DNA of 64,000 bases, from assembly GCA_965203835.1 (NCBI GenBank), contig OZ241919.1, forward strand, positions 2,359,101-2,423,100, given 5' to 3'. The notes below the pieces were generated by a model. It made no database searches. It had not been told where the DNA came from and was given only the letters and a program-made list of their open reading frames with translations. Source of the stretch: Dehalococcoidia bacterium. Its GTDB lineage: Bacteria; Chloroflexota; Dehalococcoidia; Lucifugimonadales; UBA3495. Positions 17,400 through 58,393 of this stretch are shown one piece after another. How positions within the stretch are numbered: the stretch's first letter is position 1; each line of letters opens with the position of its first letter. Made by a program: the position numbers and the translations under genes.

Positions 17400-19913
17400 T
17401 TACAGCGTCCGGGGGCGGAAAATGCGCAGCAACAGGGCCAACCGGATTCGTATCCAAGCCTGGACCAACTGAAGCCGCTGGTCTGCATCCAATTCCTTGT
17501 TGCCGTAGACCCGGCGGACGTAGTGTCCGGTAATGACCGATACTTGGTCCCGGTACTCCGGGAGGGCCTCCTCCAAGCGCCGCTGGTACTGGTATGGCGT
17601 CTGGTGGGCCGCCGGACGTAGTGCCCCAAGGGTTGCCAGCAGGGCCATGCGGCGGAACGCCACCCTGGGATCTTCGGGCGCGACCATGAATCTCCGCCAC
17701 AACAGCACCAGAATTCCGGCAACTACCAGTACTGACGCCAACCCTATGGCTACCCACATGATGATGCCGGCCAACCGTGAGCTGAATGTGATAGGACCGA
17801 TGTTGCCAAACTGGTCCGGGTTGTTGGTCAACGCCGGATCGCACTCGCCAATGTCCTCCAGACACTCGTCTTCGTTATCATCATCGGGGATGAACAGGGT
17901 GGAGGTCTCCGCTTCCGCTTCCGGCGGTATGGCGGTTGGGATGGCCCGTCCCGGCGTCGCTTCATAGGGTATCCAGCCGTAATTGGGCATGTAGACTTCC
18001 AGCCACCCGTGGCTGTTGGAGTCCAGCACCACGTAAGTGTCCTGGTCTATCACCTTGTTGCCCGTGGTATAGCCGGTGACCATGCGTGCCGGGATGTCTA
18101 CCGACCGCAGCATGACGGTCATGGCAGACGCGAAATACTCGCTGTAACCCTTCTTCTGTTCGAACAGGAAGTGGTCCACTCCATCGGCGTCGAAGGGAGG
18201 CGGTTCCACCACCAGGGTGTAAGGGTACTCCGTGGTCAGGAATTTCTTGATGGCCTCGGCCTTGTCATAGGGCGTCTCGGCGTCGGCGCTGACGGAGGCG
18301 GCAAGGTCCCGTACCCGCTGCGGCACACTGTCGGGAAGTTGCAGGTACCGCTGGGTCACCCACGCGGGGTAATCGTCTCCGGCGGAACGCAACTGTGCGG
18401 GTGTGGCGTTGGAGACCAACGACGTAACCGTATAGGTTTCCCTGGCCTTGACTTCCTTCTCGCTGCGTACCGACAACACGTCGGGCTGGAGCGGGATCAC
18501 GTCGGCCACCGTCGCCTCATTGATCCGGCCTCCCTGGGACCTGGTCACGCCTACCAAGTGGAAGTTGCTGTCCAGCAAAGACGCCAGGGAGGAGAACTTT
18601 ATATCCGACCCGCGCTGGTGTACGGCTTGGTGCAGTTGCGTGGCCGCTTCCAGCACCGGCGGGGGCAAAAGATGCCTGGTCAGCGATTCAGTGAAGTCCA
18701 CTGAATAAATGGGAGACTCGTAGGTCTCTATCTCCACCGGCCGGTCGACGTCGATTACCTGGGTCCCGGCAAACAGGTTGTTCGACGCATACATGGGGGT
18801 GACGGAGTAGCTGACTTCAAACCGCCCGTCGTCGGGCTGGGGCGACGATATGGGCGGGGCCCATCCCACCGGTCTCATGACGGTGTCGTCGGACTTCCAG
18901 CCCTTGGGGGTGTAGGTGGCGTAGGTTCTTGCTTTCCAGTACATAGCCACCGGGGAGTCAACCCACAGGACCTGGGCTTGCGTGGGGTTGATCTCGCCCT
19001 GGAATGCCAGCACGTCCCCCCAGATTCTATATCCCAGCGGCTTGCGGGCGGGAAGACCGGCGAACAGCCGGTTGAAGTCGGCCTCGAAGCTCTTCAACGG
19101 GGTCCGCATGTATTCGTAAGCGTCGTTGGTGGGCCCGAATTTGCCGCCGGTCGGGATGACGAAGAATGCTATCACCATTACGATCATGGCGAGCAGGAAA
19201 GTATCGGAGATCGAAAGAACGCCCAAGTGTCCATCGTAAGCAACGTTCCTTTCGTCCCACTCCCGGCGCCGTCGCACCGACTGGACTCGCGCGATTAACA
19301 ACAACCCGGTGAACAGGTAGAAGAGCAGAAAGCGGCTTGCTTCCGGCGGCAGGTAGGTAAGGTTTGACAGCAGGCCCATGCCGCCCAGCACGAACACGCC
19401 CCAGAAGTTCCGATAACGGCAAAACAGCCAAGCCGCCAGAAAACCGGCCATCCAGGTAGCACACATTATGCCGAAAGCAAAGGGGACCGAGTCGATGTTG
19501 ATGGACCCGGTCTCGGCTGCTTCCCACCAGAGGGCCAGCCGGGTCCAGAGTTGCTCGGCGTTGGTGACCGCAACCTCCCGTGACTGGAAAGAGGTAATCT
19601 GCCAGACGGTGGCCAGCAACCCCAGAGCTACGCCAAAGGGCAACGCAAGCACACCCCACCCGGGCAGGCGGGCCAGCAGGATGCCCGCGGCCAGCGCCAT
19701 CAGCAGCAATCCTTTCAGGTCGGGCAGCGGCACCCAGTTAGCTTCCTCGACGGACCAGATGACCACCAACAAGTTCAATGCCAGGACGACGAGGGCCAGC
19801 CAGCCGTCGGAAGGCCGGAAGAACTGGACGACGGCAATCACCCCGTTCAAGGGGTTGGATGTAATGGGCCGCTCTCTGACTGCAACCGCTTCAACCAGCG
19901 CGTTGAAGTTCAT
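17400..19913 (-). CDS. Polytopic transglutaminase-like membrane protein (TgpA-like: DUF3488 + TGase core + DUF4129-like tail)
   Basis: Multiple N-terminal TM helices. The TGase core region is KKGYSEYFASAMTVMLRSVDIPARMVTGY...HGWLEVYMPNYGWIPYEATP. There is a C-terminal TM plus tail. ATGA overlap with the upstream DUF58 gene. Confidence 0.8.
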   Translation of the reverse strand: MNFNALVEAVAVRERPITSNPLNGVIAVVQFFRPSDGWLALVVLALNLLVVIWSVEEANWVPLPDLKGLLLMALAAGILLARLPGWGVLALPFGVALGLLATVWQITSFQSREVAVTNAEQLWTRLALWWEAAETGSINIDSVPFAFGIMCATWMAGFLAAWLFCRYRNFWGVFVLGGMGLLSNLTYLPPEASRFLLFYLFTGLLLIARVQSVRRRREWDERNVAYDGHLGVLSISDTFLLAMIVMVIAFFVIPTGGKFGPTNDAYEYMRTPLKSFEADFNRLFAGLPARKPLGYRIWGDVLAFQGEINPTQAQVLWVDSPVAMYWKARTYATYTPKGWKSDDTVMRPVGWAPPISSPQPDDGRFEVSYSVTPMYASNNLFAGTQVIDVDRPVEIETYESPIYSVDFTESLTRHLLPPPVLEAATQLHQAVHQRGSDIKFSSLASLLDSNFHLVGVTRSQGGRINEATVADVIPLQPDVLSVRSEKEVKARETYTVTSLVSNATPAQLRSAGDDYPAWVTQRYLQLPDSVPQRVRDLAASVSADAETPYDKAEAIKKFLTTEYPYTLVVEPPPFDADGVDHFLFEQKKGYSEYFASAMTVMLRSVDIPARMVTGYTTGNKVIDQDTYVVLDSNSHGWLEVYMPNYGWIPYEATPGRAIPTAIPPEAEAETSTLFIPDDDNEDECLEDIGECDPALTNNPDQFGNIGPITFSSRLAGIIMWVAIGLASVLVVAGILVLLWRRFMVAPEDPRVAFRRMALLATLGALRPAAHQTPYQYQRRLEEALPEYRDQVSVITGHYVRRVYGNKELDADQRLQLVQAWIRIRLALLLRIFRPRTL

Positions 19914-21181
19914 GCCACAGCCTCCACCGCCCCCGCCGGCGCCATTCCGCTTTCCAACCCTGCTTGGCGGTTGAGAGGTATCCGCAGCGCGTCGTTCAGC
20001 GATTGCCCTCTTTTGACCACGTAGGTCGCAACGTCGTTGTCGAAAAGGTAATCGACCAAGTATCTCTGTTCCCTGGACCCGCCGAAGCCCTGCGGGTCGA
20101 TCAGCACCACGGCAACATTGACCCCCTTGCGGCGCAGGTCGTTAAGGGCCGGCACCCACTCCGACCGGGTGGAAGGGGTTATCACGGTCAGGGTGTTGAT
20201 CCGGCTCAATTGGCCGCGCATGTCGTACAGGTATCGCTCCAGGGACATGGTGCCGTTGGCGCGCATCTGGGCAAGGGACTCGAACAACCTGCCTTGGTGC
20301 TCCGGGCTGCTGTCGGGCCGGAAAACATAGGTGTTGTCGCTGTTGGACGCCAAGCCCACCGGCATGGACGATTCCACCAACTGCGAAATCAGGGACGCCG
20401 CAATGGTCACGCCCAGTTCTTCGGTGTTGTCCGACTCGTCGTTGGGGGACGGGTGCGAGGTACGGTGCATGTCCAGCAACACCCAGGCTTCCGCCGATTG
20501 GCCCAGGTCGAATTCCTTCACCATGAGAGTGTTCATGCGGGCCGTGTAGGGCCAGTGAATGCGGCGAAAACTGTCTCCGTGGATATATTCCCTGACTGAG
20601 GAAACATCGGTGGTTATCTGGCTGACCGAGTGGCTCGTCCGGCTCTCGCTGGGCAGGTTGGCCAAGCGCAGGTCCATGTCCGGCAGCGGTTCGGTAGCGG
20701 GGAAGACTATGAAGGGCTCGGGATCCCCAAAGATGCGCCGGAACCGGAAAATCCCCAAGGGGTCCTGCCCGACTACCTCGACCTGCCCGACGTGGTAGAG
20801 ACCGCGCCTGCTCAGGTAGGTGTCTGTGCGCCAAGTGCGGGCTTGGTCTTTTACCATGGCAATGCCCCGGCCCGGAGTGTTACCCGGCAGATCGGTGAAT
20901 TCCGTTACCTCCAGCCAGGACTTGGGAAGGCGGTTGGTGTTGCGGATGGTGACGCGCCCTTCGAGATACTCGCCCACCTGTCCCCGGCTGGTGATGCGGC
21001 TCAATTGGACGTCGAGGCCCCGCAGATTAAGCAGCGCCCAGCCAATGCCTATAACGCCCATCAATATGAGCGTGTAAAGGAACTGGTAGAAGAACTGAAA
21101 GCCGGTGCCTATGGTATAAAACCCGATGACGAGGAACAGCACGAAGACGCCGGCAGTCCTTTTGGTCAAGAACCTTTTCAT
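19910..21181 (-). CDS. DUF58 domain protein (MoxR-associated, vWA-like)
   Basis: VREYIHGDSFRRIHWPYTARMNTLMVKEFD is the DUF58 hallmark, with two N-terminal TM helices. The start is moved to MKRFLTKR (21181) to avoid overlap with moxR. Confidence 0.8.
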   Translation of the reverse strand: MKRFLTKRTAGVFVLFLVIGFYTIGTGFQFFYQFLYTLILMGVIGIGWALLNLRGLDVQLSRITSRGQVGEYLEGRVTIRNTNRLPKSWLEVTEFTDLPGNTPGRGIAMVKDQARTWRTDTYLSRRGLYHVGQVEVVGQDPLGIFRFRRIFGDPEPFIVFPATEPLPDMDLRLANLPSESRTSHSVSQITTDVSSVREYIHGDSFRRIHWPYTARMNTLMVKEFDLGQSAEAWVLLDMHRTSHPSPNDESDNTEELGVTIAASLISQLVESSMPVGLASNSDNTYVFRPDSSPEHQGRLFESLAQMRANGTMSLERYLYDMRGQLSRINTLTVITPSTRSEWVPALNDLRRKGVNVAVVLIDPQGFGGSREQRYLVDYLFDNDVATYVVKRGQSLNDALRIPLNRQAGLESGMAPAGAVEAVA

Positions 21182-21194
21182 TGTTCGGCTCCAG

Positions 21195-22154
21195 CTAAGC
21201 CGCCCGGGTTGCTCCGGGTACGGCCACCGAGTTGAGCAGGTCGGTGACCAGATCGGCACTGCGGATCCCCCGCATTCTCGCCGAGGGAGCCAGGATTATC
21301 CGGTGGGCGGTCACCGCCGGGGCCAGGGCCTTGATGTCGTCCGGTATCACGTAGTCGCGGTCCAGGACCAGCGCCAGCGCCCTGGAAGCGCGGAACAGCC
21401 CCAGAGAGGCGCGCGGAGAAGCGCCAAGTGCCACGTCCCGGTGGTCACGGGTCGATTCGGTCAGGGTTACGATGTATTCGCGCACCGCCCTGTCTACGTA
21501 CACCTCTTTGGCCGCTTCCTGAAGTTGAATTATTTCGGCGGGGCTGGTCACCGCCGTGAGGCTCTCGATCGGGTGGACCTGTTCCTGCTGCCCGATGACC
21601 GATAGTTCCTCCTCGAAATCCGGGTATCCGAGGCTGATCCTCATCAGGAACCTGTCCAACTGGGCTTCCGGCAGGGGGAAGGTGCCTTCGTATTCGATGG
21701 GGTTCTGGGTGGCCATTACGATGAAGGGGTGTTGCAATTGGTGAGTAACGCCGTCTACTGTGACCTGCAACTCCTCCATCGCTTCCAGAAGCGCCGACTG
21801 AGTCTTGGGAGTTGCCCGGTTTATCTCGTCGGCCAGCACCACCTCGGCCATGATCGGCCCCGGGCGGAACTGGAACTCGCCGCTGGACTGGTTGTAGACG
21901 GAGATGCCGGCCACGTCGCTCGGCAGCAGGTCGGGAGTGAACTGAATGCGCTTGAAATCGCAGCCAATGGACACGGAAAGGCTTTTCGCCAGCATGGTCT
22001 TGCCCACGCCCGGCACATCTTCCACCAGGATGTGGCCCTGGGCGATCAGGGCCGCTAGGGCGTGCTCGATGACCTCGGTTTTGCCCACGATCACCTTGGA
22101 TACATTGTCTACAATATCCCGCGCAATCCGGCTTGGGGACGTGTGGTTGGTCAA
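21195..22154 (-). CDS. MoxR-family AAA+ ATPase
   Basis: Walker A EDVPGVGKT, Walker B LADEINR, and ATQNPIEYEGTFPLPEAQLDRF. Confidence 0.9.
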   Translation of the reverse strand: MTNHTSPSRIARDIVDNVSKVIVGKTEVIEHALAALIAQGHILVEDVPGVGKTMLAKSLSVSIGCDFKRIQFTPDLLPSDVAGISVYNQSSGEFQFRPGPIMAEVVLADEINRATPKTQSALLEAMEELQVTVDGVTHQLQHPFIVMATQNPIEYEGTFPLPEAQLDRFLMRISLGYPDFEEELSVIGQQEQVHPIESLTAVTSPAEIIQLQEAAKEVYVDRAVREYIVTLTESTRDHRDVALGASPRASLGLFRASRALALVLDRDYVIPDDIKALAPAVTAHRIILAPSARMRGIRSADLVTDLLNSVAVPGATRAA

Positions 22155-31856: not shown

Positions 31857-32219
31857 CAACTCCACGTCCCGTCGTCGTTCCACTTGACCCACGCCTCTTA
31901 TTCCTCGCCCGGTCCCGTCGCCGGTGCAGGCGGTTGCAGACCGTCCCTTCAGCATGACCATCCTCGCCTGCGCAGCAAGTCCCCTCCAAGTCCGATCTTG
32001 TCCTGAAAGCTCCCCTGCGGCCGCATAGAGGGTCAACAAAACCGTCAAACTCCGCATTGGTGCAAAGTCTAAACATAATTTAAGCCTTTGTATAATGTTT
32101 TTGCACAGGGCGCCAGGGCCTTTCACCCGCATCAAGGTCCATGGATGCCCCGGAATTAGCGGGGTCTTGCCAAGAACATTGGGGAGACACCCAGTTACAC
32201 AATACTCAAGGAGTTCAGC

Positions 32220-33476
32220 ATGAAGCTAGTTGTAGTGGGTGCAGGCCAGGGTGGTTCAAATATAGCGGACGAGTTCGTCGCGCTGGGGAAATGGGTCTGG
32301 AAAAACAGGCGAATACGGATTTTCACGGGTTCTGACTACGATGACGTCGCCAAGGGCGTGTTCGCGGTCAACTTGGGTGCGGGAGATCTCTACAGCCTTC
32401 AGCACATCCCCCAGACCGAAGACCACACGATCCTTTTAGGAACTACCGATGAGTTCCGGGGACGTGGAGCGGGCAAGGTCAACGCCGACGGCGCCGAGCA
32501 GGCCCGCCGGGGGGCGCACAAGATCGTGTCCACCATCCGCGACCACGGGGACGTTCCCTCGGCGGACGCCATTATGGTCATCGCCACCACCGCCGGCGGC
32601 ACAGGCTCCGGCTCCGTGGGCGTCATCGTCGATCTGTTGAAAGACGCCTTCAAGAAACCCGTATATGCCTTGCTGGTCCTTCCTTTCGAGAACCAGTATG
32701 ACGATCCGGACAGCATGGTGAACACGGCCACCTGCATCAAGCGGGTGATGGACAATTCCAACGCCGACGCCGTTTTCTTCGTGGACAACCAGAAGTTCGT
32801 CCGGGGCAGTCAATCAATGTCCTACAACTACCAACAGATAAACCGCAAGATAGCCGATTCGTTCCTTGACATCCTGTGCGTTGGAGAGGAGACCGACCGG
32901 CGTTACATCGGTGAGGTACTGGACGCCAACGACGTGATACGCATCCTCCATGGGCCCACGGCCATCGGAGTCGCCCAAGCGGCGGTGCCGAAGAAGAGCA
33001 GCGGCGGACTGTTCGGACGGATACGCGGCGAGCCCAAGATCAATCACTTCTCAGTCTCCAAGCTGCAAATAGAACGGGCCCACAACGTGCTCCAGCAAGC
33101 GTTGGGCGAACTGTCCATCGACTGCGAGGTCTGGGAGAATGGGTCTTCCTACTATGACGCCCAGAATGTGTTGGGGCTCTTCAGCGGCCCACCTGAGGAA
33201 GCCAGCGAAGAGATAGTGGAAATGATGGACACTACCTTGGCGGAACGGGTCCCCGGCGCCGGACGGCGAAAGGGCACCTATCCGGGCCGCGTTTCCGATA
33301 CCATCGGTTTCACCATCCTTGTGTCCAATATCGGACGGGGCGCGGCCATGGACCGGGTTGAGAAGTTCTTTCTGGATGCCACCAGGATGCTGGGCGAGGT
33401 CCAGCACAAACGGGCGGGCAGGGAAAAACTGTGGGAAGCCACAGCCCGCACCGCATCCCAGATCCCTGACCTGTAG
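32220..33476 (+). CDS. Divergent tubulin/FtsZ-superfamily GTPase (CetZ/FtsZ-like)
   Basis: MKLVVVGAGQGGSNIADEF (G-box), AVNLGAGDL, GRGAGKVNADGAEQA (T3-like), ATTAGGTGSGS (fits the tubulin signature [SAG]GGTG[SA]G), DNQKF (T6-like), LDANDVIRIL (T7-like DxxD), then GPTAIGVAQA. Confidence 0.8.
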   Translation: MKLVVVGAGQGGSNIADEFVALGKWVWKNRRIRIFTGSDYDDVAKGVFAVNLGAGDLYSLQHIPQTEDHTILLGTTDEFRGRGAGKVNADGAEQARRGAHKIVSTIRDHGDVPSADAIMVIATTAGGTGSGSVGVIVDLLKDAFKKPVYALLVLPFENQYDDPDSMVNTATCIKRVMDNSNADAVFFVDNQKFVRGSQSMSYNYQQINRKIADSFLDILCVGEETDRRYIGEVLDANDVIRILHGPTAIGVAQAAVPKKSSGGLFGRIRGEPKINHFSVSKLQIERAHNVLQQALGELSIDCEVWENGSSYYDAQNVLGLFSGPPEEASEEIVEMMDTTLAERVPGAGRRKGTYPGRVSDTIGFTILVSNIGRGAAMDRVEKFFLDATRMLGEVQHKRAGREKLWEATARTASQIPDL

Positions 33477-33539
33477 AAAGTTACGGGCGCTTCGGCGCCC
33501 AACACCGGGGGCGAGATATATCAGAGCAGGAGGTTCACC

Positions 33540-34556
33540 ATGAGGAGCTCGAGAGCGCCTGAGCACCGGAAAAGCTCATCGAGGATCGTAATATTGTTAG
33601 GTCTGTTTGTCCTGGTCGTTGGCTTGGGCTTGGCCATTACCTACTTTACCCAGGGGTTCGGCTCACTGTCGGCGGAGACCAATGAGCCGGTCCCCGCAGT
33701 GACCGAAGCGGGAGCCTTGGTGGAGCCGGAGGTTGTCTCTGAACCTCCGGCCCCCGACCAAGCGGACATGAATGCCGAAGTGGTGGTCCCCGGGTCCCAG
33801 GGTGACGGCGCTCCCGCGGATTCAAAGATGGAGCCGCTGGCATCGGACAACGATTCTGTCGAAACCTCCGGGATTGAACAACCGGCAGACGCTGCCAAGA
33901 TCGAAGATGTGAATACCGAAGAAGTCGCACCTGGCGATGCCAAGGCCGAAGGGTTGGCCGACGAGCAGACCCCATCCGTTGCCCAAGAGACCGAAAAGGA
34001 ACGGAATCTGGAATTTTTGCCCCAAGTCAGATTTGGCGAAGTGCTCGGCGAAGGACTGATGGAACTGGCAATGCCCAATGGCGAAAGGGTCGACACTTGG
34101 TACACCTTTCAAGTGGACACCACCAGCGGGGAAATCATAGTCTACTTCGCCCTGTTCGACGAGGAGAAGCAGTCGATATTGAGCACAGTGCGGGTGGACA
34201 ACTATTCCAAAGGCAACGACTTGACCAAGGCCGAGATTACCCTTTTCTACCCGGACGGAATGCAACGGGTCATCGGATTTGACGGCGTTGCCGGCACCAT
34301 ATCTCTGACCCAACGCTCCAATCTCCCCTACGAACCCAGCGTCTTTTCACGGGAATTACGCCGCTCGATGGTGTATTCCGGAATGGAATTGCAGGACGCC
34401 GAGGCTGACGCGTCCTTGAAGCTGGACCTGGACGTAACCGGCCTGTCCAAAGGCGAAAAGATAAGCTTCACGCATTCGGCGCCTACTGAAGTAGCGACGG
34501 CGTTGGAGGAATTGAAGGAATTGGTCGGCGTCATCGAAGTGGTGAGACAAAGCTGA
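33540..34556 (+). CDS. Single-pass membrane protein: N-terminal TM, long acidic linker, C-terminal globular domain (ZipA-like architecture)
   Basis: The RBS GGAGG precedes the ATG. The TM is IVILLGLFVLVVGLGLAITYF. A roughly 120-aa Glu/Asp/Pro/Ala-rich segment follows, then a roughly 180-aa non-repetitive domain. The gene starts 63 nt after the tubulin-like gene. Confidence 0.65.
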   Translation: MRSSRAPEHRKSSSRIVILLGLFVLVVGLGLAITYFTQGFGSLSAETNEPVPAVTEAGALVEPEVVSEPPAPDQADMNAEVVVPGSQGDGAPADSKMEPLASDNDSVETSGIEQPADAAKIEDVNTEEVAPGDAKAEGLADEQTPSVAQETEKERNLEFLPQVRFGEVLGEGLMELAMPNGERVDTWYTFQVDTTSGEIIVYFALFDEEKQSILSTVRVDNYSKGNDLTKAEITLFYPDGMQRVIGFDGVAGTISLTQRSNLPYEPSVFSRELRRSMVYSGMELQDAEADASLKLDLDVTGLSKGEKISFTHSAPTEVATALEELKELVGVIEVVRQS

Positions 34557-40160: not shown

Positions 40161-40277
40161 CCTGGTGGTTTGAGCGTGGCGGACCCACCCGTTCCCATCC
40201 CGAACACGGTAGTGAAACGCCTCAGCGCCAACGATACTGCCTTGGTAACGGGGTGGGAAAATAGGTCACCGCCGGGG
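40161..40277 (+). rRNA. rrf: 5S ribosomal RNA, not linked to 23S
   Basis: CCTGGTGGT...CACCCGTTCCCATCCCGAACACGGTAGTGAAACGCCTCAGCGCCAACGATACTG...GGGAAAATAGGTCACCGCCGGGG. The conserved loop B/C/E sequences are present and helix I closes between the 5' and 3' ends. Confidence 0.9.
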
Positions 40278-45561: not shown

Positions 45562-45638
45562 GGGCCTGTAGCTCAGGCGGCTAGAGCGCGGTCCTGATAA
45601 GACCGAGGTCGATAGTTCGAGTCTATCCAGGCCCACCA
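45562..45638 (+). tRNA. tRNA-Ile (anticodon GAU), CCA encoded
   Basis: GGGCCTG TA GCTC AGGCGGCTA GAGC G CGGTC CTGATAA GACCG AGGTC GATAG TTCGAGT CTATC CAGGCCC A CCA. The cloverleaf folds by hand. Confidence 0.9.
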
Positions 45639-47215
45639 ACCTGCACGGTAGATAGAACCGCATCGGGAAGGGCCACCTTGTCGGTGGCCTTTCCCGGCGC
45701 CAGGCTATCGCTGGGCATGGGCACGGTGTAGCGCATCAGGGCGTCGCCGGGCACCACGAGAATCTCCTTGACGAAGGTCTCGATGAAGGCCCGCCGCTCG
45801 GTAAGCTCGCTCTCCTCCAGGAAGTCCTTCATCTCCCTTGCGTAGGCGGCGACGGCGTTCACGTCGTCCAGCACCTTCCGCCGCTGGGCCAGGGCGCTCC
45901 TGGCCTCCTCCGCCGAGCATTCCAGCCGGTCCTGCCGCTCCCTGAGTTCGCGGATGCGGGGCCTGAAGTCGTCCACCTCCATGTCGGTGGTCTCCACCAG
46001 GTTGTAGAGCCTGCCCAGCCGCTGGCGCACGTCGTTCAGCTCCGCATCGATGGTCTCCAGCCGCTTGCGCTGCTCCCGGGTGACGCCGCCCATCTCCGAC
46101 TCCACCACCTTCACCAGATCGCGGATGCTGTCCTCGGTGAGGATGTTGGAGCGAATCCGGTTGACCACCAGCTCCTCGAAGCGGCGGGCGTTCAGGGTGG
46201 GAGTAGGGCAGGCGTCCCGGCCGACCTTGATGTTGGTGGGGCAGACGTAATAGGCGTACTGGCCGCTCTTGGCGAAGCGTCCGGTGAGGGGCGAGTCGCA
46301 GACCTTGCACCGGGCCAGGCCGCTGAGCAGGTAGGAGCTTCCGACCCGGCGGGGGTTCCTGACCTTGGGGGCGCGGGAGCGCATCTGCCGGTTCACCTTG
46401 CGGAACTGGGTCTTCGTCACGATGGAGGGAAAGGCCTTCTCCACCCTGACCGGCTCGCCCTTGTCCTTGGCGCCTTCGCCCCATACCAAAGTGCCGGTGT
46501 AAGCCTCGTTGGTGAGGATGCCGTGGACGCTGGTCTTGCCCCAGAGCTTTCCCCTGGGGCTGGCTATGCCCTCGCCGTTGAGGATGCGGGTGATTTCCTG
46601 GGTGCCCCTGGCAGCCTCGGCCAGGTCGAAGATGCGCTTCACGATGCGGGAGGAGTCCGGGTTGACCTCCAGGGTGGGGCGCTTCTTGGGGCCGTCCTGG
46701 ACCATGACCCGGTTGTAGCCGAAGGGGGCGTGGCTGGAGACCCAGAAGCCACGGGAGGCGGCCTCGCGCATTCCCCGCAAAACTTCGGTGGCAAGATTTT
46801 CGCTATAAAACTCGTCCACGGACTCGATGATGGCCTCCATCAGCTTGCCGGTGGGGGTGTCGTCGGCGTGCTCGGTGATGGAGACCACGCGAATGCCCTT
46901 CCTGCGGAGCATGGACTTGAAGGCCACGGCGTGCTCCCGCTTGCGGGTGAAGCGGGAAAATTTCCAGACCAAAATCTCGCGGAAAGGGGCCTGGGACCTG
47001 CTGGCCTCGTCGATCATCCTGCGGAACTCGGGCCTATCGGCGACCCTGCCGCTCTCGGCCTCGTCCACGAACTCGCGGACCACGGTGTAGCCGTTCCTGG
47101 CGGCGTGCTCACGCAGAGCGCGTAGCTGGGCGGCGACGGAGAGGTCCACGTCCTGGCGGTCACTGGACACCCGGGCGTAGAGGGCCACGGGAGTGTTGTC
47201 GTATCGTTCATTCAT
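45623..47215 (-). CDS. Large serine recombinase (integrase)
   Basis: The N-terminal resolvase domain ALYARVSSDRQ has the catalytic Ser motif. A recombinase domain, a Cys-containing zinc ribbon (CKVCDSP...YYVCP) and a long coiled coil follow. Confidence 0.9.
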   Translation of the reverse strand: MNERYDNTPVALYARVSSDRQDVDLSVAAQLRALREHAARNGYTVVREFVDEAESGRVADRPEFRRMIDEASRSQAPFREILVWKFSRFTRKREHAVAFKSMLRRKGIRVVSITEHADDTPTGKLMEAIIESVDEFYSENLATEVLRGMREAASRGFWVSSHAPFGYNRVMVQDGPKKRPTLEVNPDSSRIVKRIFDLAEAARGTQEITRILNGEGIASPRGKLWGKTSVHGILTNEAYTGTLVWGEGAKDKGEPVRVEKAFPSIVTKTQFRKVNRQMRSRAPKVRNPRRVGSSYLLSGLARCKVCDSPLTGRFAKSGQYAYYVCPTNIKVGRDACPTPTLNARRFEELVVNRIRSNILTEDSIRDLVKVVESEMGGVTREQRKRLETIDAELNDVRQRLGRLYNLVETTDMEVDDFRPRIRELRERQDRLECSAEEARSALAQRRKVLDDVNAVAAYAREMKDFLEESELTERRAFIETFVKEILVVPGDALMRYTVPMPSDSLAPGKATDKVALPDAVLSTVQVGGPG

Positions 47216-47489
47216 CTGTGTTTCCTCCTGTCGTTTCGTCCTGCCCTGTCAACCGGGAGCGCAGCCGCTCCAAACGGGCCTGGCGGCGAAGCTCCCTATC
47301 TTCCATGTACAATCGGAGGGCCTCGCGCACCAATTCGCTCATGTCGCGGCCCTCTTCCTCCCTGACCCGCTGCACCTGCTCGAACATATCGGGAGGGAGC
47401 GAGAAGGTAATGGTCCTGGAAATGCGTCGTGGGGGCATGGCGTCTCTTTTTTGCCTGTCAATGTATGGGGTTGTCTTACTATCTATCAT
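47208..47489 (-). CDS. Ribbon-helix-helix (CopG/MetJ-like) protein, overlaps the recombinase start by 8 nt
   Basis: ITFSLPPDMFEQVQRVREEEGRDMSELVREALRLYM is a classic RHH sequence. Confidence 0.75.
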   Translation of the reverse strand: MIDSKTTPYIDRQKRDAMPPRRISRTITFSLPPDMFEQVQRVREEEGRDMSELVREALRLYMEDRELRRQARLERLRSRLTGQDETTGGNTDE

Positions 47490-47545
47490 CGGACATCCGG
47501 CCTTCCCTTGTCAAGAGACGGCGCGTCTCGATGGGGTGAAGAACT

Positions 47546-47569
47546 GCGGCCCAGCAAAGGCTGGGCCGC
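47546..47569 (-). terminator. Stable hairpin between the small ORF and the RHH gene (possible terminator)
   Basis: Perfect 10-bp stem GCGGCCCAGC/GCTGGGCCGC with a 4-nt loop. The T-tract is weak. Confidence 0.3.
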
Positions 47570-47617
47570 CTATGGTTGTGGTGTTCATCGCTCCTGCTGC
47601 CGGGTTCGGGAAAGGCA

Positions 47618-47836
47618 TCAGCCCTCCGCCTCCGGCCCCTTTTCGGCCGGGACTTGTCCGCCCTGCTGGCGCAGGTAGGAGCGGATGGCGACCCTGGCCC
47701 AGATGCGCAGCCCGTTGCGCAGCAACCGCCGCTGCTCCGGCGTGTAGGACACCTCCGGGTTGTCGGGGTAGGGTTCGTTGTCCTGATTGTCGGGTATCTC
47801 CGGTATCTTCTTTCCTTTGTCGTCTTTCATTGGCAT
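47618..47836 (-). CDS. Small hypothetical protein
   Basis: 72 aa ORF with no motif. The coding call is weak. Confidence 0.3.
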   Translation of the reverse strand: MPMKDDKGKKIPEIPDNQDNEPYPDNPEVSYTPEQRRLLRNGLRIWARVAIRSYLRQQGGQVPAEKGPEAEG

Positions 47837-47954
47837 AATCGCAGCGGCCTTTCCCGGCTATCGGCCACGGGCCGCTGGCCTCTCGTCAGTGGTCTGGGGA
47901 CGGGCCGCCGGCGCGTGCGGACAGGGCGGGCGCCGGCGGTTCGTCTACCGGGGT

Positions 47955-48263
47955 CTATTCCTCCTTTTGCTCATCGTTGGGATTGGCCTGCCGGTCCTCG
48001 CCGGTGAGGATGTCCAGACCGCCCTTGACGCGGCGGGCGAAGCGGACCAGGGCCAGCATGGCGCCGCCGCAGGGCTCCACGCCCTGGCGCCAGCGGCGCA
48101 GCTGCTTGCGGTCCACGCCCAGGGCCCGGGCCATGCCGCTCCAGGTGAGGCCGCTGGCCTCCTTGAGCCGGACGATGCGGTCGGCGAAGTCCCGGGGGAG
48201 CACGCCGCTCTCGTGGTAAAACGGGCACCCCCGGCAGGGGTGCTCTTGGTCATGGGTCGTCAT
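47955..48263 (-). CDS. HTH domain protein with N-terminal Cys/His cluster
   Basis: The start is set at MTTHDQEHPCRGCPFYH (48263). The HTH is GLTWSGMARALGVDRKQLRRWRQG. Confidence 0.6.
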   Translation of the reverse strand: MTTHDQEHPCRGCPFYHESGVLPRDFADRIVRLKEASGLTWSGMARALGVDRKQLRRWRQGVEPCGGAMLALVRFARRVKGGLDILTGEDRQANPNDEQKEE

Positions 48264-48528
48264 CTTTGTCCTCCAATCGGAAAAGTTGGTGAAACTCATC
48301 CAGACCGAGGGCCCGGAGCATCCGGCTGCGGATGCGACCCGACGGCGCCCGCTCCCCGTTGACCAGCATGGATATGTAGCCTGGGCTGACGCCGATCTCC
48401 CGTGCCAGCCATTTCTGGGAGCGGTCGAGCAGGCCCAGCCGGTCCCAGAAAGCCGCCGCGTTGAGCCGGACAACGGTCCGCCCCCCGCGCCCCGAGGGGC
48501 CTCCCGGTGTCTTGAAGTTTGGGCACAT
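48250..48528 (-). CDS. XRE-family HTH regulator
   Basis: ATG at 48528 behind GGGAGGTG. The HTH is SQKWLAREIGVSPGYISMLVNGERAPS. Confidence 0.7.
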   Translation of the reverse strand: MCPNFKTPGGPSGRGGRTVVRLNAAAFWDRLGLLDRSQKWLAREIGVSPGYISMLVNGERAPSGRIRSRMLRALGLDEFHQLFRLEDKDDDP

Positions 48529-48565
48529 GGCGTTGCACCTCCCTATGGGATTCGGATGCCTTTCG

Positions 48566-50194
48566 TTACGGGAATGGATGGGCGGTTTCCCAACTGCCCG
48601 GCGTGCGCCAGGCACAGCCCAGCGGCCCAAGTTCTGCCACTGCCGCCCGGTGGGATACCCGCAGGGGGACCGCCACGCGGGCGCGTTCCATCTCCTCCAT
48701 TGCCACCCGCAGGAAGTGGCCGGCGGCGATGTCGTCGTCGAAGACCACCAGGACCTGGGGCCGGACGCCGTGGTCGTCGGCGGGACGGTGGGAGGAGTAG
48801 TAGCGCAGGTAGGGGGCGAGACGCTGGGCCATGGTCCCCGGCCTGACGGCGCGGCGCTCCCACTCCAGGAAGAAGGGCCGGGCGGCACCGTCCCGGCGCA
48901 GGAGGCCGAAGGCGTCGGGGTTGACCGAGCGCCAGCCGCCACCGTGACGGAAGCTGCGGGCGGCCCGGTGGGGCGGGTCCAGCAGGCAGACCTCCCAGCC
49001 CAACACTCGCGATTGCCGGACCAACGCGGCGAGAAAGGAATGGACGGCGGCGGTGTGCTCCAGGTTGCGGAACAGCTGCCGTACCCGCCTGCCGGAGACG
49101 TTGCGCCACGATGGGGGTTGCCCGGAGTTGACGGGTTCCACGCTCCACCGCTTCCTGGCGACGCCCACGGAGGTACGGTCCCTGCGGGCCAGCAGCGCCA
49201 ACCCCCGGTCGGCGAGGGCCTGGCGGCCCCCGCCGGCGGGAACGCGGGCCGCCAGGCCCAGGCTCTCCAGCGGTTCCATCAGACGGGAGGCGCGGGTCTC
49301 GGAGACGCCCATCAGCCCGGCCAGGTCCTTCTGCAGGATCCCGGGCCAGTCGGCCAGCAGGTCCAGGGCGCGCTTCTCGGCGGGCTTCAGCAGGGCAGGC
49401 AGTGCGGTTGCATCGTCCGGTGAGACGTCACTAGGCAGGTCAAGTTTCGACGGGGGCGGCTCGGTGGGAAGCTGACCGCCGGGGTGCAGCCTCTCCAGGG
49501 CCGACGGCAGGTCCAGGGCGGCGTTGGCCGAGGGGAGACGCCAGATGCGGTGTCCGGGTCCCGCCAGCGCCGCGTCGCGCTCCAGGGCCAGCAGGGCCGG
49601 CACGGGGTAGCGGGACAACAGCAGCCGCAGGTGGCGCAGCCGCACCTCGTCGGGGGCCAGCACCATGACAACACCGGGCAGCGGTCCCTGGCCCAGCCGC
49701 CACAGCCGCTTGGCGAAGCCGGTGCGGTCGGCGGTGCGTCCCTGCCGGAGGATTCCGATATAGCGTCCCCCGGGCAGGGCGATTCCGGCGTCCAGCGGAT
49801 GCGCCCGGTACCAGTTGAAACCCAGTGTCCGCCGTAGAGCCGCTATGGACGACGCCAGGGGGTAGATGACGGCCACGGAGTCCAGCCGTTCCAGCAGGCT
49901 GCGCTGCCATCGGGCGGACACGGGGTAGTTCCGGAGGATGTCGTCCGTCCCAGCGCCCTCCTGCTCGGCCAGCCGTCGCAGCCCGTCGGCGTTCAGGTGG
50001 AACCGGCGCGTAGGCGGCAACAGATCGGTGGCGTGGGAGATTGAATCGACAAAGCCGGCCTTCTCCATCCGGTCCACGGCCTCGTAGACTGCGCCCCGGG
50101 ACCGTCCGGCGACGGCGGCCAGCTCCAGCCGGCCCAGGAAGGGCATGCCCGCCAGCGCCCGCATCAGTTCCTGCTCGCTGGCTGCGGGCCTCAT
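48566..50194 (-). CDS. Two winged-helix domains + C-terminal replication-relaxation (Replic_Relax, PF13814-like) domain; candidate relaxase/initiator
   Basis: The start ATG at 50194 overlaps the T4CP stop (ATGA). wHTH segments are GRLELAAVAGRSRGAVYEAVDRMEKAGFV and ILQKDLAGLMGVSETRASRLMEPLESLGL. The C-terminal part has HTAAVHSFL...NPDAFGLL...FFLEWERRAV. Confidence 0.65.
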   Translation of the reverse strand: MRPAASEQELMRALAGMPFLGRLELAAVAGRSRGAVYEAVDRMEKAGFVDSISHATDLLPPTRRFHLNADGLRRLAEQEGAGTDDILRNYPVSARWQRSLLERLDSVAVIYPLASSIAALRRTLGFNWYRAHPLDAGIALPGGRYIGILRQGRTADRTGFAKRLWRLGQGPLPGVVMVLAPDEVRLRHLRLLLSRYPVPALLALERDAALAGPGHRIWRLPSANAALDLPSALERLHPGGQLPTEPPPSKLDLPSDVSPDDATALPALLKPAEKRALDLLADWPGILQKDLAGLMGVSETRASRLMEPLESLGLAARVPAGGGRQALADRGLALLARRDRTSVGVARKRWSVEPVNSGQPPSWRNVSGRRVRQLFRNLEHTAAVHSFLAALVRQSRVLGWEVCLLDPPHRAARSFRHGGGWRSVNPDAFGLLRRDGAARPFFLEWERRAVRPGTMAQRLAPYLRYYSSHRPADDHGVRPQVLVVFDDDIAAGHFLRVAMEEMERARVAVPLRVSHRAAVAELGPLGCAWRTPGSWETAHPFP

Positions 50195-52683: not shown

Positions 52684-52767
52684 ATCGTGCTTCCTTTCAA
52701 CTCCTATCGGGTTGGTTGTTGGTATGGGTGTTTCCGTCCGCTGCGGGTGTCCGCCGCTGCTTGTCGG

Positions 52768-54987: not shown

Positions 54988-55009
54988 TTCTCTTATCTCC
55001 TTGTTTCTC

Positions 55010-55345
55010 TTATGGGCCGGGCAGGATGGGAGCGATGCCGCTGCTGATCACCAGGGCGATGGCCTTGGCCAGCAGCACCACCACCAGGCCGACGACGGCC
55101 ATGACCACGGCGTTCCTGGCCCGGCCCCGTCGTCCCTCCCCCTCGGCGCCCTCGGCCATCAGCACAAAACCCGCCCAGACGACGGCGAAGAGGCACAGGC
55201 CCACCCCGGCGTAGGCCATCCCCGTCAGCACCGCGTCGAAGGCCCGGAGCATCGCCTCCCGCTCCTCTTCGGAGAAGGCGAGAGCCAGAAAGGCCACCTT
55301 CCCGCCGTAGCCAGCAAGCAGGACCGCTCCTGCGCGCCCTACCAT
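55010..55345 (-). CDS. Small two/three-TM protein (VirB2/TrbC-like candidate)
   Basis: ATG at 55345 overlaps the upstream stop (ATGGTAG). 111 aa and hydrophobic. Only this C-terminal part of the 324-aa track ORF looks coding. Confidence 0.5.
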   Translation of the reverse strand: MVGRAGAVLLAGYGGKVAFLALAFSEEEREAMLRAFDAVLTGMAYAGVGLCLFAVVWAGFVLMAEGAEGEGRRGRARNAVVMAVVGLVVVLLAKAIALVISSGIAPILPGP

Positions 55346-56943: not shown

Positions 56944-56953
56944 TCGTCACCTC

Positions 56954-58389: not shown

Positions 58390-58393
58390 ACCG

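What the first reader, a model, noticed from the sequence alone, without database searches (positions are those of the whole stretch)
32220..34556. Divergent tubulin/FtsZ-superfamily GTPase paired with a ZipA-architecture membrane protein, outside any division cluster
The 418-aa protein carries, in the correct order, the tubulin/FtsZ GTPase motifs. These are a G-box GAGQGGSN in an MKLVVVGAGQGGSNIADEF N-terminus that resembles archaeal CetZ more than bacterial FtsZ, AVNLGAGDL, a T3-like GRGAGKVNADGAEQA, ATTAGGTGSGS (fits the tubulin signature [SAG]GGTG[SA]G rather than the FtsZ GGGTGTG), and a T7-like LDANDV with both acidic residues. It therefore appears polymerisation-competent, not just a GTP-binding remnant. 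It sits between an XDH-family operon and a dienelactone hydrolase, with no ftsA, ftsQ, mur or sepF neighbours. 63 nt downstream, behind its own GGAGG, lies a protein built like ZipA: an N-terminal TM anchor, a roughly 120-aa acidic/Pro-rich disordered linker and a C-terminal globular domain. The GTPase ends in a short tail (...ASQIPDL) that could serve as a tether-binding peptide. I infer a two-gene membrane-anchored cytoskeletal module distinct from the canonical divisome. Non-canonical FtsZ/tubulin families with conserved partners have been proposed before (FtsZl families, Makarova and Koonin 2010; CetZ; TubZ). I cannot place this protein in any of them by eye.
Basis: partly seen in the sequence, partly recalled or inferred. 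Interest (0 to 1): 0.8.

Follow-up and report, generated by a model that had tools for sequence, protein, structure and literature searches.

The report
Bacterial CetZ-like tubulin with membrane partner
A wall-less marine-type Chloroflexota bacterium (Dehalococcoidia/SAR202 group) encodes, besides its normal division protein FtsZ, a tubulin-like GTPase of the otherwise archaeal CetZ type that is always followed by one unknown membrane protein whose bulk probably lies outside the cell, which suggests a cytoskeleton-to-envelope link rather than a ZipA-style tether.

Summary
In detail: both ORFs, every quoted motif, the 63-nt gap and the RBS are there. The GTPase is a CetZ-like tubulin-superfamily protein, not FtsZ. 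It has Pfam Tubulin + CetZ_C. Its family profile matches the CetZ1/CetZ2 structures at 1e-65/5e-47, against 5e-14 for TubZ and 7e-11 for FtsZ. The FtsZ equivalog scores 37 bits against a 295 cutoff. The host is bacterial (Dehalococcoidia, SAR202-type), a lineage reported to lack peptidoglycan and to keep ftsA-ftsZ elsewhere. Santana-Molina et al. 2023 mention CetZ-like proteins in Dehalococcoidia in passing.

New here: two clades exist. Clade A, which includes the window gene, is followed by the same orphan gene in all 17 species genomes with downstream sequence, and still at 29% GTPase identity. Clade B is never followed by it.

The ZipA analogy fails. The partner has 4.9 Lys/Arg before the TM and 0.9 after it, which predicts N-in/C-out, so the linker and β-rich domain would lie outside the cell. 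No ZipA domain or fold is detected. Only an invariant ~15-residue N-tail (MRxSRxPExRG) can reach the filament. The GTPase ends in an FtsZ-CTP-like (L/I)PxL motif (118/118), which hints at an FtsA/SepF-type receptor.

Verdict: a new variant of a known kind, and moderately to highly interesting.

The parts
32091..32096 (+). Possible -10 box (TATAAT) in an AT-rich patch of the 363-nt spacer upstream of the GTPase gene
   Evidence: Read directly from the sequence. The consensus scan did not call a full promoter because the -35 match is poor. Weak evidence.
32208..32213 (+). Ribosome-binding site AAGGAG, 6 nt before the GTPase ATG
   Evidence: Sequence.
32220..33476 (+). CetZ-like tubulin-superfamily GTPase, 418 aa (clade A of the Dehalococcoidia CetZ-like proteins)
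   Evidence: ORF. Pfam Tubulin + CetZ_C. Best PDB matches are CetZ1, CetZ2 and M. thermophila CetZ. FtsZ equivalog scores 37 bits against a 295 cutoff. 815 homologs, named ones from Dehalococcoidia/SAR202/Chloroflexi.
32226..32801 (+). N-terminal GTPase domain (residues 3-194): T1 GAGQGG, T2 N51, T3 GRGAGK, T4 GGTGSG, N168-TATC, N190
   Evidence: Pfam PF00091 at 3-194. Invariant columns in A3. AF2 pLDDT about 75-89. Foldseek top hits are CetZ structures.
32811..33371 (+). CetZ_C domain (residues 198-384), including H7 N208 and the T7 acidic pair D235/D238
   Evidence: Pfam PF21011, 52.7 bits against a 21.6 cutoff. D235 invariant and D238 nearly invariant. D238 aligns with CetZ1 E218 in the 4b46 alignment. 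The AF2 model is poor here.
33462..33473 (+). Extreme C-terminal motif IPDL (family consensus [LIVM]-P-x-[LFIM]), resembling the FtsZ C-terminal peptide
   Evidence: 118/118 clade A proteins end in it. 77/78 clade B proteins carry it, typically KDIPSLL. 4/66 other CetZ-like representatives have it. For comparison, FtsZ from L026 ends DIPAFIRK, L031 DVPSFLRK, E. coli DIPAFLRK.
33485..33500 (+). GC hairpin GGGCGC-TTCG-GCGCCC just after the stop codon, with no T-tract
   Evidence: Sequence and fold. Not called a terminator. Comparable GC hairpins occur in about half of the clade A spacers and are not conserved in sequence. A role in mRNA stability or stoichiometry is inference only.
33528..33533 (+). 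Ribosome-binding site AGGAGG, 6 nt before the partner ATG
   Evidence: Sequence.
33540..34556 (+). Partner: orphan single-pass membrane protein, 338 aa, predicted type II (N-in/C-out)
   Evidence: ORF. No Pfam, NCBIfam, PADLOC or PHROG family. Homologs occur only downstream of clade A GTPases.
33540..33584 (+). Predicted cytoplasmic N-tail (residues 1-15) with the invariant motif M-R-x-S-R-x-P-E-x-R-(G/K); the only part that can reach a cytoplasmic filament
   Evidence: M1, S4, R5, P7, E8 and R10 are invariant in A1 and nearly invariant in A2. Mean 4.9 Lys+Arg in this flank.
33585..33650 (+). Transmembrane helix / signal anchor (residues ~16-37)
   Evidence: Hydrophobic window 16-36. AF2 helix 15-37.
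33654..34001 (+). Acidic, Pro/Ala-rich disordered linker (residues 39-154), predicted extracytoplasmic; length varies between relatives
   Evidence: pLDDT<50 over 39-154. 28 Asp+Glu, 4 Lys+Arg and 12 Pro in 116 aa. Partner length ranges 254-338 aa, and most of the difference is in the linker.
34002..34553 (+). Conserved β-rich globular domain ending in a helix (residues 155-338), predicted extracytoplasmic, fold unassigned
   Evidence: AF2: ten β-strands plus helix 315-337, pLDDT 85-94. No significant PDB fold or sequence match. The profile finds only this family, 87 proteins.

Best explanation
Shown: this is a two-gene unit of a Dehalococcoidia (SAR202-type) bacterium. Gene 1 encodes a CetZ-like tubulin-superfamily GTPase with intact nucleotide-binding loops and the T7 acidic pair. 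It is an extra paralog and not the cell's FtsZ. Gene 2 encodes an orphan single-pass membrane protein that accompanies gene 1 throughout clade A and beyond.

Inferred: the GTPase forms GTP-dependent filaments under the membrane, as archaeal CetZ1 does. The partner is a type II (N-in/C-out) membrane protein. Its invariant ~15-residue basic cytoplasmic tail (MRxSRxPExRG) contacts the filament or an adaptor on it. Its acidic linker and β-rich domain project outward into the peptidoglycan-free, S-layer-type envelope. The pair would therefore couple a cytoplasmic cytoskeleton to the envelope, with a role in cell shape or envelope organisation rather than as the Z-ring. In layout it resembles FtsN or RodZ more than ZipA.

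The GTPase's conserved FtsZ-CTP-like terminus ((L/I)PxL) probably docks on a separate cytoplasmic receptor such as FtsA or SepF, because clade B keeps the motif without having the partner.
For: CetZ identity: Pfam Tubulin 2.6e-21 plus CetZ_C 4.7e-14. Single-sequence match to CetZ1 4b46 at 3.4e-27 over residues 1-396. Family profile against CetZ1 1.8e-65 and CetZ2 5e-47, versus TubZ 5e-14, FtsZ 7e-11 and gamma-tubulin 6e-10. Foldseek ranks 1-4 are all CetZ structures.
Not FtsZ: TIGR00065 gives 37 bits against a 295 cutoff. 100/100 NJ bootstraps separate the family from canonical FtsZ, including FtsZ from the same genomes.
Active site: G7, G9, G12, N51, G83, G85, N88, GGTGSG, N190, N208 and D235 are invariant and D238 nearly so.
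Bacterial host: DnaE, EF-G, ClpC and RadA in the window. Named homologs are Dehalococcoidia/SAR202.
Canonical ftsA-ftsZ elsewhere and no peptidoglycan in these lineages: PMC10608941 and PMC11994032. FtsZ was also found in L026 and L031.
Module: the partner lies immediately downstream on the same strand in 17/17 clade A species genomes and 9/9 metagenome loci, while other neighbours differ. It is also present after P0147 at 29% GTPase identity. It is absent from 62 clade B loci. The partner domain is found nowhere else.
Topology: 4.9 versus 0.9 Lys+Arg on the two TM flanks across 76 sequences, with an acidic C-flank.
Tail motifs.
Against: Topology rests on the positive-inside rule alone. The N-tail motif and the (L/I)PxL terminus are both lost in the deepest pair-bearing lineage (P0147/L095), so neither is strictly required for the pairing. 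In L023 and L024 the partner is shorter and its C-domain does not match the profile. The C-domain of the GTPase model is of low confidence. The role in shape or envelope is an analogy with Haloferax CetZ1 plus the wall-less biology of the hosts. No shape, S-layer or motility genes are linked in the loci examined.
Confidence: 0.5

Rival explanations
1. Accessory division system. The CetZ-like protein co-assembles at or near the Z-ring, recruited through its FtsZ-CTP-like tail by the same anchor as FtsZ (FtsA or SepF). The partner acts as a late-divisome-type bitopic protein, with an FtsN/FtsQ-like layout, that compensates for the lost peptidoglycan septal machinery.
For: The tail motif resembles the FtsZ CTP. 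ftsA-ftsZ are retained while ftsW/ftsI and the dcw genes are lost in these lineages. In L031 a clade B gene lies 184 nt downstream of ftsZ, and in L026 the pair is 4.6 kb from ftsZ. The type II layout with a short basic tail and long linker recalls FtsN (FtsN layout from my own knowledge).
Against: The pair is not linked to ftsA/ftsZ in the window or in most loci: only 2 of 89 loci contain FtsZ within ±6-10 kb. The genes between ftsZ and the pair in L026 are RNR and ComEC. The characterised archaeal CetZ proteins act in shape and motility, not division (abstracts listed). The partner has no SPOR or POTRA domain.
Confidence: 0.25
2. The partner is a ZipA-like tether: N-terminus outside, linker and globular domain in the cytoplasm, with the globular domain capturing the GTPase's C-terminal peptide.
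For: The linear order TM - disordered acidic/Pro linker - globular domain is real. The conserved C-terminal peptide on the GTPase is real. Co-occurrence is strict.
Against: The charge distribution is the reverse of ZipA: 4.9 Lys+Arg before the TM against 0.9 after it, in 76 sequences. There is no ZipA Pfam or NCBIfam match, no ZipA among the PDB fold or profile hits, and the domain is all-β with a terminal helix. Clade B keeps the peptide without any partner. The deepest pair (P0147) lacks the peptide but keeps the partner.
Confidence: 0.07
3. Co-transcribed but not physically coupled. The downstream gene is an envelope or surface protein that merely shares a promoter with the GTPase gene.
For: No interaction data exist. 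A GC hairpin sits between the genes in about half the loci. The partner's bulk is extracellular. The partner evolves much faster than the GTPase (31-46% against 72-83% identity in the same genomes).
Against: Adjacency is kept in every clade A genome while all other neighbours change, and it persists to 29% GTPase identity. The partner family occurs nowhere else. The only sequence-invariant part outside the C-domain is the short cytoplasmic tail, which is hard to explain without a cytoplasmic ligand.
Confidence: 0.1
4. A TubZ/PhuZ-like DNA-segregation system of a mobile element.
For: TubZ is the next-best PDB family. A 46%-identical relative (P0122) lies on a phage-like contig directly after a ParB-like gene. 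The window also carries an ICE-like region.
Against: The window pair sits among chromosomal housekeeping and metabolic genes. It is 11 kb from the ICE-like region, separated from it by ClpC, RadA, 5S rRNA and tRNA-Ile, and lies in host-like GC. There is no DNA-binding adaptor next to it: the partner is a membrane protein. No match in the phage collection, and only haloarchaeal megaplasmid CetZ paralogs among plasmids. Conservation across many Dehalococcoidia chromosomes looks vertical.
Confidence: 0.05

Closest known systems
Archaeal CetZ (Haloferax volcanii CetZ1/CetZ2, PDB 4b46/4b45; Methanosaeta thermophila CetZ, 3zid)
   Same: Tubulin GTPase domain plus CetZ_C domain over the full length, a tubulin-type GGTGSG signature, and a T7 acidic residue aligned with CetZ1 E218. 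These are the best sequence, profile and fold matches by tens of orders of magnitude. It is an additional paralog beside FtsZ, in cells with an S-layer and no peptidoglycan.
   Different: The host is bacterial (Dehalococcoidia). Identity to CetZ1 is only about 27%. The proteins form their own clades A and B (77% and 71% NJ bootstrap). The terminus is an FtsZ-CTP-like (L/I)PxL, rare in other CetZ-like proteins (4/66). The dedicated membrane partner was not found in archaea. Function is untested.
CetZ-like sequences of Chloroflexota-Dehalococcoidia mentioned by Santana-Molina et al. 2023 (PMC9871819)
   Same: Almost certainly the same proteins. The paper describes them as CetZ-like, in 'sparse paraphyletic groups', with C-termini hit by a CetZ_C HMM at about 1e-10.
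   Different: In the section I read, the paper gives one sentence and does not mention a partner gene, tail motif, clade structure, abundance or functional hypothesis. I did not read its figures or supplements. Here the family is large (815 clusters at 90% identity, at least 140 species genomes) and splits into a partner-linked clade and a partner-less clade.
Bacterial FtsZ
   Same: Same superfamily and GTPase loops. The C-terminal hydrophobic-Pro-x-hydrophobic peptide resembles the FtsZ CTP.
   Different: TIGR00065 scores 37 bits against a 295 cutoff. There is no FtsZ_C domain, no GGGTGTG motif and no ftsA/dcw context. Genuine FtsZ exists separately in these lineages.
ZipA (γ-proteobacterial FtsZ tether)
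   Same: The linear order: N-terminal TM, long disordered Pro-containing linker, C-terminal globular domain.
   Different: Opposite predicted orientation. No ZipA_C domain or fold. The linker is acidic. The taxon is different.
FtsN / RodZ-type bitopic linkers (layout comparison only; FtsN and RodZ features are from my own knowledge)
   Same: Type II orientation. A short conserved basic cytoplasmic tail (FtsN) or cytoplasmic module (RodZ) contacts a cytoskeletal protein. Then a single TM, a long disordered extracytoplasmic linker and a C-terminal extracytoplasmic globular domain.
   Different: No SPOR domain or HTH, and no sequence or fold similarity. These hosts have no peptidoglycan for such a domain to bind.
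TubZ / PhuZ segregation tubulins
   Same: Second-closest solved family. One relative (P0122) is in a phage-like, ParB-linked context.
   Different: The window locus is chromosomal, has no DNA-binding adaptor, and its partner is a membrane protein.

Membership tests
Tubulin/FtsZ superfamily | GTPase domain with T1-T6 loops, including the glycine-rich T4 signature | tested here: met
   PF00091 2.6e-21 over residues 3-194. GGTGSG and the other loop residues are invariant.
Tubulin/FtsZ superfamily | T7 loop acidic residue(s) that complete the neighbouring subunit's active site | tested here: met
   D235 invariant and D238 nearly invariant. D238 aligns with CetZ1 E218 (that E218 is the catalytic residue is my own knowledge of Duggin et al. 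2015).
Tubulin/FtsZ superfamily | Tubulin/FtsZ fold | tested here: met
   The AF2 N-domain is confident. Foldseek gives 666 PDB hits at E<=1e-3, and all 50 listed are tubulin/FtsZ-superfamily proteins. The C-domain of the model is of low confidence.
Tubulin/FtsZ superfamily | GTP-dependent polymerisation | not testable with these tools
   Needs biochemistry.
CetZ | CetZ-type C-terminal domain (Pfam CetZ_C) | tested here: met
   PF21011, 52.7 bits against a 21.6 cutoff, residues 198-384. All 120 listed homologs carry it.
CetZ | Closest solved relatives are CetZ structures, over the full length | tested here: met
   4b46 at 1.8e-65 and 4b45 at 5e-47 match over the full length (profile positions 1-399 and 1-388); 3zid at 5.6e-27 matches positions 2-242 only. 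The next family scores 5e-14. Foldseek ranks 1-4 are CetZ.
CetZ | Branches inside the clade bounded by Thermococcales CetZ (Brown & Duggin 2023 boundary) | tested here: inconclusive
   Inside MRCA(Thermococcus CetZ P0263, HvCetZ1) in 67/100 NJ bootstraps. No ML tree was possible.
CetZ | CetZ-specific residues around the GTP pocket (Brown & Duggin 2023, Fig. 2) | not tested
   The residue list is in a figure that is not held.
CetZ | Archaeal host ('archaea-specific' in the CetZ literature) | tested here: not met
   Bacterial chromosome with DnaE and other bacterial housekeeping genes. Nearly all relatives are labelled Dehalococcoidia/Chloroflexota; two loci carry other bacterial labels.
Canonical FtsZ | Scores above the FtsZ equivalog cutoff (TIGR00065) | tested here: not met
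   37.4 bits against 295.2. True FtsZ from L026 and L031 score 427 and 414.
Canonical FtsZ | ftsA/dcw neighbourhood, or being the only tubulin homolog in the genome | tested here: not met
   Neighbours are XDH and DLH genes. ftsA-ftsZ are reported elsewhere in SAR202/Dehalococcoidales genomes. The window's own genome beyond 64 kb could not be read.
TubZ/PhuZ | Plasmid or phage context with a DNA-binding adaptor (TubR) and centromere | tested here: not met
   Chromosomal context with a membrane-protein partner. No phage hits.
FtsZl1/FtsZ-like (Tubulin_2) families of Makarova & Koonin 2010 | Tubulin_2 (PF13809) domain | tested here: not met
   17 bits against a 27 cutoff, over residues 113-155 only.
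ZipA (partner protein) | N-out/C-in bitopic topology, with the basic region after the TM | tested here: not met
   4.9 Lys+Arg before the TM and 0.9 after it, with an acidic C-flank, in 76 sequences. This is a prediction only.
ZipA (partner protein) | C-terminal FtsZ-binding ZipA domain | tested here: not met
   No Pfam or NCBIfam match. No ZipA in the PDB profile search or among the 50 fold matches listed.
ZipA (partner protein) | Long flexible linker between the TM and the globular domain | tested here: met
   Residues 39-154 are disordered in the model. The linker is acidic rather than P/Q-rich.

The most novel reading that the evidence does not exclude
Around the time it lost peptidoglycan, the common ancestor of SAR202 and Dehalococcoidales acquired an archaeal CetZ cytoskeleton. 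In the SAR202-type lineage this evolved a dedicated trans-membrane coupler, the partner protein, linking filaments inside the cell to the S-layer-type envelope outside. That would be an archaeal-style morphogenetic system operating in abundant ocean bacteria. It would also borrow the FtsZ C-terminal peptide to share FtsA or SepF as an anchor.
Probability: 0.2. Interest if true: 0.85.

Novelty: new variant of a known kind. Interest (0 to 1): 0.62.

Why it matters
CetZ proteins are still described as archaea-specific, yet a large and tightly conserved CetZ-like family exists in Dehalococcoidia. That class includes SAR202, one of the most abundant bacterial groups of the dark ocean, and the organohalide-respiring Dehalococcoidales. 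These bacteria have lost peptidoglycan and carry S-layer-type walls, so how they control shape and envelope growth is an open question.

A CetZ-like filament with a strictly co-inherited membrane-spanning partner is a concrete, testable candidate for that job. It also bears on the evolution of the tubulin superfamily, through possible archaea-to-bacteria transfer and convergent or retained use of an FtsZ-like C-terminal docking peptide. The partner itself is an uncharacterised protein family with an unassigned fold.

Tried and rejected
- **Tethered-peptide AF2 model.** I built chimeras of partner residues 1-16, a Gly/Ser tether and the cognate GTPase, paired across 12 loci (A4), to test tail-filament docking.
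- **Direct search for ftsZ in the window's own genome.** Only 64 kb is readable and it contains no FtsZ. I relied instead on FtsZ found in two family-bearing loci and on published surveys.
- **AF2 of the GTPase.** Only relatives above 71% identity could be used, which gave a poor C-domain. The fold search is therefore informative mainly for the N-domain.
- **Fold search of the partner.** It gave only weak β-barrel look-alikes (nitrobindin, GFP) with TM-scores ≤0.26. I rejected these as assignments.
- **Intergenic hairpin as a conserved regulatory element.** It is present in only about half the loci and is not conserved in sequence, so I demoted it to a passing note.
- **Sigma-70 promoter and terminator scan.** No more hits than in shuffled sequence.
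- **Defence-system and phage-family scans.** Negative or uninformative for both proteins.
- **Cavalier-Smith 2020 (PMC7203096).** It co-mentions CetZ and Chloroflexi, but the held text has no CetZ passage.


Full report
**1. Checking the observation**

The two ORFs are exactly as described: 32220..33476 (+, 418 aa) and 33540..34556 (+, 338 aa).

The genes are 63 nt apart, and AGGAGG lies 6 nt before the second ATG. AAGGAG lies 6 nt before the first ATG, and a TATAAT box sits in an AT-rich patch of the 363-nt upstream spacer. The consensus promoter/terminator scan found no more than chance would give.

The neighbours are an XDH-family molybdopterin subunit and its FAD subunit upstream, and a dienelactone hydrolase downstream. 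No FtsZ is encoded anywhere in the 64 kb.

**2. What the GTPase is**

- Pfam gives Tubulin (2.6e-21, residues 3-194) plus CetZ_C (4.7e-14, residues 198-384). Both are above their gathering scores.
- NCBI's FtsZ equivalog scores 37 bits against a cutoff of 295.
- Against PDB sequences the best match is H. volcanii CetZ1 (4b46) at 3.4e-27 over residues 1-396, followed by CetZ2 (4b45) and the Methanosaeta CetZ (3zid). TubZ, gamma-tubulin and FtsZ follow at 1e-5 or worse.
- With a family profile the gap widens: CetZ1 1.8e-65, CetZ2 5e-47 and 3zid 5.6e-27, against TubZ 5e-14, FtsZ 7e-11 and gamma-tubulin 6e-10.
- An AF2 model is confident only in the N-domain, because only relatives above 71% identity could be used in the alignment. 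Its four best PDB fold matches are all CetZ structures.

In an alignment spanning the family, G7, G9, G12, N51, G83, G85, N88, GGTGSG, N168-TATC, N190, N208 and D235 are invariant, and D238 is nearly so. In the CetZ1 alignment D238 falls on CetZ1 E218. From my own knowledge of Duggin et al. 2015, that is the T7 residue mutated to make GTPase-dead CetZ1. The protein therefore has everything expected of an active, polymerising family member. Polymerisation itself cannot be tested here.

**3. Whose gene it is**

The window is a bacterial chromosome: it encodes bacterial Pol III alpha, EF-G, RtcB, ClpC and RadA.

The GTPase has 815 homolog clusters. The 120 listed are all at least 71% identical and 393-437 aa long. 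The named ones come from Dehalococcoidia, SAR202 or Chloroflexi MAGs and are called 'hypothetical', 'FtsZ' or 'CetZ'.

A scan of one genome per GTDB species found at least 140 relatives. Of the 80 kept, 78 are titled Dehalococcoidia or Chloroflexota. One is labelled Spechtbacteria and one Deltaproteobacteria. They split into two clades:

- **Clade A:** 59-82% identity, 417-426 aa, includes SAR202. The window gene belongs here.
- **Clade B:** 32-38% identity, about 390 aa, Dehalococcoidales, often with 2-3 paralogs per genome.

In the 50%-clustered library only 32 clusters score better than 1e-30. In plasmids the only hits are haloarchaeal megaplasmid CetZ paralogs at 26-29% identity, and in phages there are none.

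A neighbour-joining tree with 100 bootstraps gives the following:

| Question | Support |
|---|---|
| All CetZ-like sequences separate from canonical FtsZ, including FtsZ from the same genomes | 100% |
| Extended clade A | 77% |
| Clades A + B together | 71% |
| Window protein inside the clade spanned by Thermococcus CetZ (Brown & Duggin's family boundary) and CetZ1 | 67% |

I therefore call it CetZ-like and leave strict family membership open.

**4. Is it the cell's FtsZ?**

No. Genuine FtsZ (427 and 414 bits on TIGR00065, with classic DIPAFIRK and DVPSFLRK termini) occurs in a clade A locus (L026) and in a clade B locus (L031).

Published surveys agree. They report that mraZ-mraW-ftsA-ftsZ are present and adjacent in all examined high-quality SAR202 and Dehalococcoidales genomes. 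The rest of the dcw cluster and peptidoglycan synthesis were lost in the common ancestor of those two groups. SAR202 have S-layer-type walls, and some carry archaeal flagellar genes (PMC10608941 and PMC11994032). The two clades found here lie in just those wall-less lineages. Whether they are absent from the peptidoglycan-bearing basal orders could not be tested.

**5. The partner and the module**

The downstream protein matches no Pfam, NCBIfam, PADLOC or PHROG family.

Its homologs share four features:
- an invariant N-terminal M-R-x-S-R-x-P-E-x-R-G motif;
- one TM segment;
- a linker of variable length;
- a conserved C-domain of about 180 aa.

A profile of the family hits the ORF immediately downstream, on the same strand, in all 17 clade A species genomes that have downstream sequence, and in all 9 metagenome loci. 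It hits in none of the 62 clade B loci. The other neighbours differ between loci.

The pair persists in a lineage whose GTPase is only 29% identical to the window's. In P0147/L095 the downstream gene matches the partner profile at 3e-15. A profile of the C-domain alone finds only 87 proteins in 5.8 billion. Nearly all have this same length and architecture, apart from a few shorter, apparently truncated entries. All the named ones come from these bacteria. The two-gene module is real, and as far as I could find it is undescribed.

**6. Why it is not ZipA-like**

AF2 models a TM helix at 15-37, a disordered stretch at 39-154, and a confident domain (pLDDT 85-94) of ten β-strands ending in a helix. 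That domain has no significant fold match in the PDB: the best hits are nitrobindin and GFP barrels at E=3e-3 with TM-scores ≤0.26. It has no profile match either. No ZipA entry appears in the matches returned by either search.

More importantly, in 76 distinct partner sequences the ~16-residue N-flank carries a mean of 4.9 Lys+Arg. The 25 residues after the TM carry 0.9 and are net acidic. By the positive-inside rule the N-terminus is cytoplasmic, and the linker and globular domain are outside the cell. In ZipA the basic stretch follows the TM and the globular domain is cytoplasmic (my own knowledge).

The globular domain therefore cannot capture the GTPase's tail. The only part of the partner that can reach a cytoplasmic filament is the short invariant N-tail. 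The layout is closer to FtsN or RodZ-type linkers (my own knowledge), though without any homology to them.

**7. The GTPase tail**

All 118 full-length clade A proteins end in [LIVM]-P-x-[LFIM]. In clade B, 77 of 78 carry the motif in the last 15 residues, typically as KDIPSLL. Only 4 of 66 other CetZ-like representatives do. Those other representatives are archaeal wherever a name is available, and many end instead in a Pro-less D-I-D-S-L-L/F.

The motif resembles the core of the bacterial FtsZ C-terminal peptide (DIPAFL, DVPSFL), which binds FtsA, ZipA and SepF (my own knowledge). Clade B keeps it without having a partner. Its receptor is therefore more likely a shared cytoplasmic protein such as FtsA or SepF than the partner. 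This is inference from motif similarity only.

**8. Best explanation and rivals**

I think the most likely reading (about 0.5) is a cytoskeleton-to-envelope module. A CetZ-like filament lies under the membrane. It is coupled through the partner's cytoplasmic tail to an extracytoplasmic domain sitting in a peptidoglycan-free, S-layer-type envelope. The module would act in shape or envelope organisation.

The rivals are:
- an accessory division role sharing FtsZ's anchor (about 0.25);
- co-transcription without physical coupling (about 0.1);
- a TubZ-like segregation system (about 0.05).

Weak points of the main model:
- Topology is predicted from charge alone.
- Both short motifs are lost in the deepest pair-bearing lineage.
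- The partners in L023 and L024 are shorter and lack the C-domain match.

**9. Novelty**

Santana-Molina et al. [quoted passage not shown] The CetZ literature otherwise calls the family archaea-specific. I found no paper that discusses function, abundance, the partner gene or the tail motif. This is a new variant of a known kind: a bacterial CetZ-like protein with a dedicated, uncharacterised membrane partner.

Noticed in passing
window 45562-64000: tRNA-Ile(GAT) at 45562-45638 is followed at once by a large serine recombinase (45623-47215, -). After that GC rises from about 0.60 to 0.67-0.72. The high-GC block encodes a Replic_Relax/MarR protein (48566-50998, -), a TrwB-like coupling protein (50191-52683, -) and a TraG/TraC-type ATPase (52768-54987, -). 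This is probably an integrative conjugative element inserted at the tRNA.
   Followed up: partly
window 40161-40277: A 5S rRNA gene stands alone, with no 16S or 23S in the window, between an FMN-dehydrogenase-like gene and clpC.
   Followed up: no
L093 4229-5491 and L094 (protein P0122): A 46%-identical relative of the GTPase lies on a phage-like contig. A ParB-like gene is directly upstream, and Acb1 (anti-CBASS), nucleoside deoxyribosyltransferase and radical-SAM PHROG matches are nearby. There is no membrane partner. This may be a mobile-element partition system built on a CetZ-like tubulin.
   Followed up: partly
L028-L089 (clade B loci): Dehalococcoidales carry 2-3 CetZ-like paralogs of about 390 aa, some in tandem (L030, L054, L067). 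One paralog is usually just upstream of dnaX. They have no partner gene but end in KDIPSLL-type, FtsZ-CTP-like tails.
   Followed up: partly
L031 4686-7176: Canonical ftsZ (414 bits) lies 184 nt upstream of a clade B CetZ-like gene. This adjacency was not seen in the other clade B loci.
   Followed up: no
L026 and L030: The clade A pair, with ftsZ 4.6 kb upstream, occurs in a 44% GC MAG labelled Candidatus Spechtbacteria (CPR). A clade B tandem occurs in a MAG labelled Deltaproteobacteria. The cause could be mis-binning, mislabelling or horizontal transfer.
   Followed up: no
L023 1742-2425 and L024 2374-3063: In two clade A genomes (GTPase 63-65% identical) the partner is only 227-229 aa. It keeps the N-tail and TM, but its C-terminal part does not match the C-domain profile, so the domain may have been replaced or lost.
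   Followed up: no
window 33485-33500: A GGGCGC-TTCG-GCGCCC hairpin with no T-tract sits between the two genes. GC-rich hairpins recur in about half of the clade A spacers but are not conserved in sequence. It may set the ratio of the two products.
   Followed up: partly
L095 1926-2921: The divergent partner in the P0147 lineage has a linker built of KEVIVEVIKEVIVEKEVI-type repeats flanked by Pro/Thr-rich stretches. In L096 the same gene appears truncated (212 aa) after a 485-nt gap, which may be a collapsed repeat or a frameshift.
   Followed up: no
window 17400-22154 and L006/L007 1-1946: A MoxR-type AAA/DUF58/transglutaminase gene set, and an AhpC-TSA/DUF3500 set, recur upstream of the pair in the closer relatives but not in the distant ones. 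This is local synteny only.
   Followed up: no
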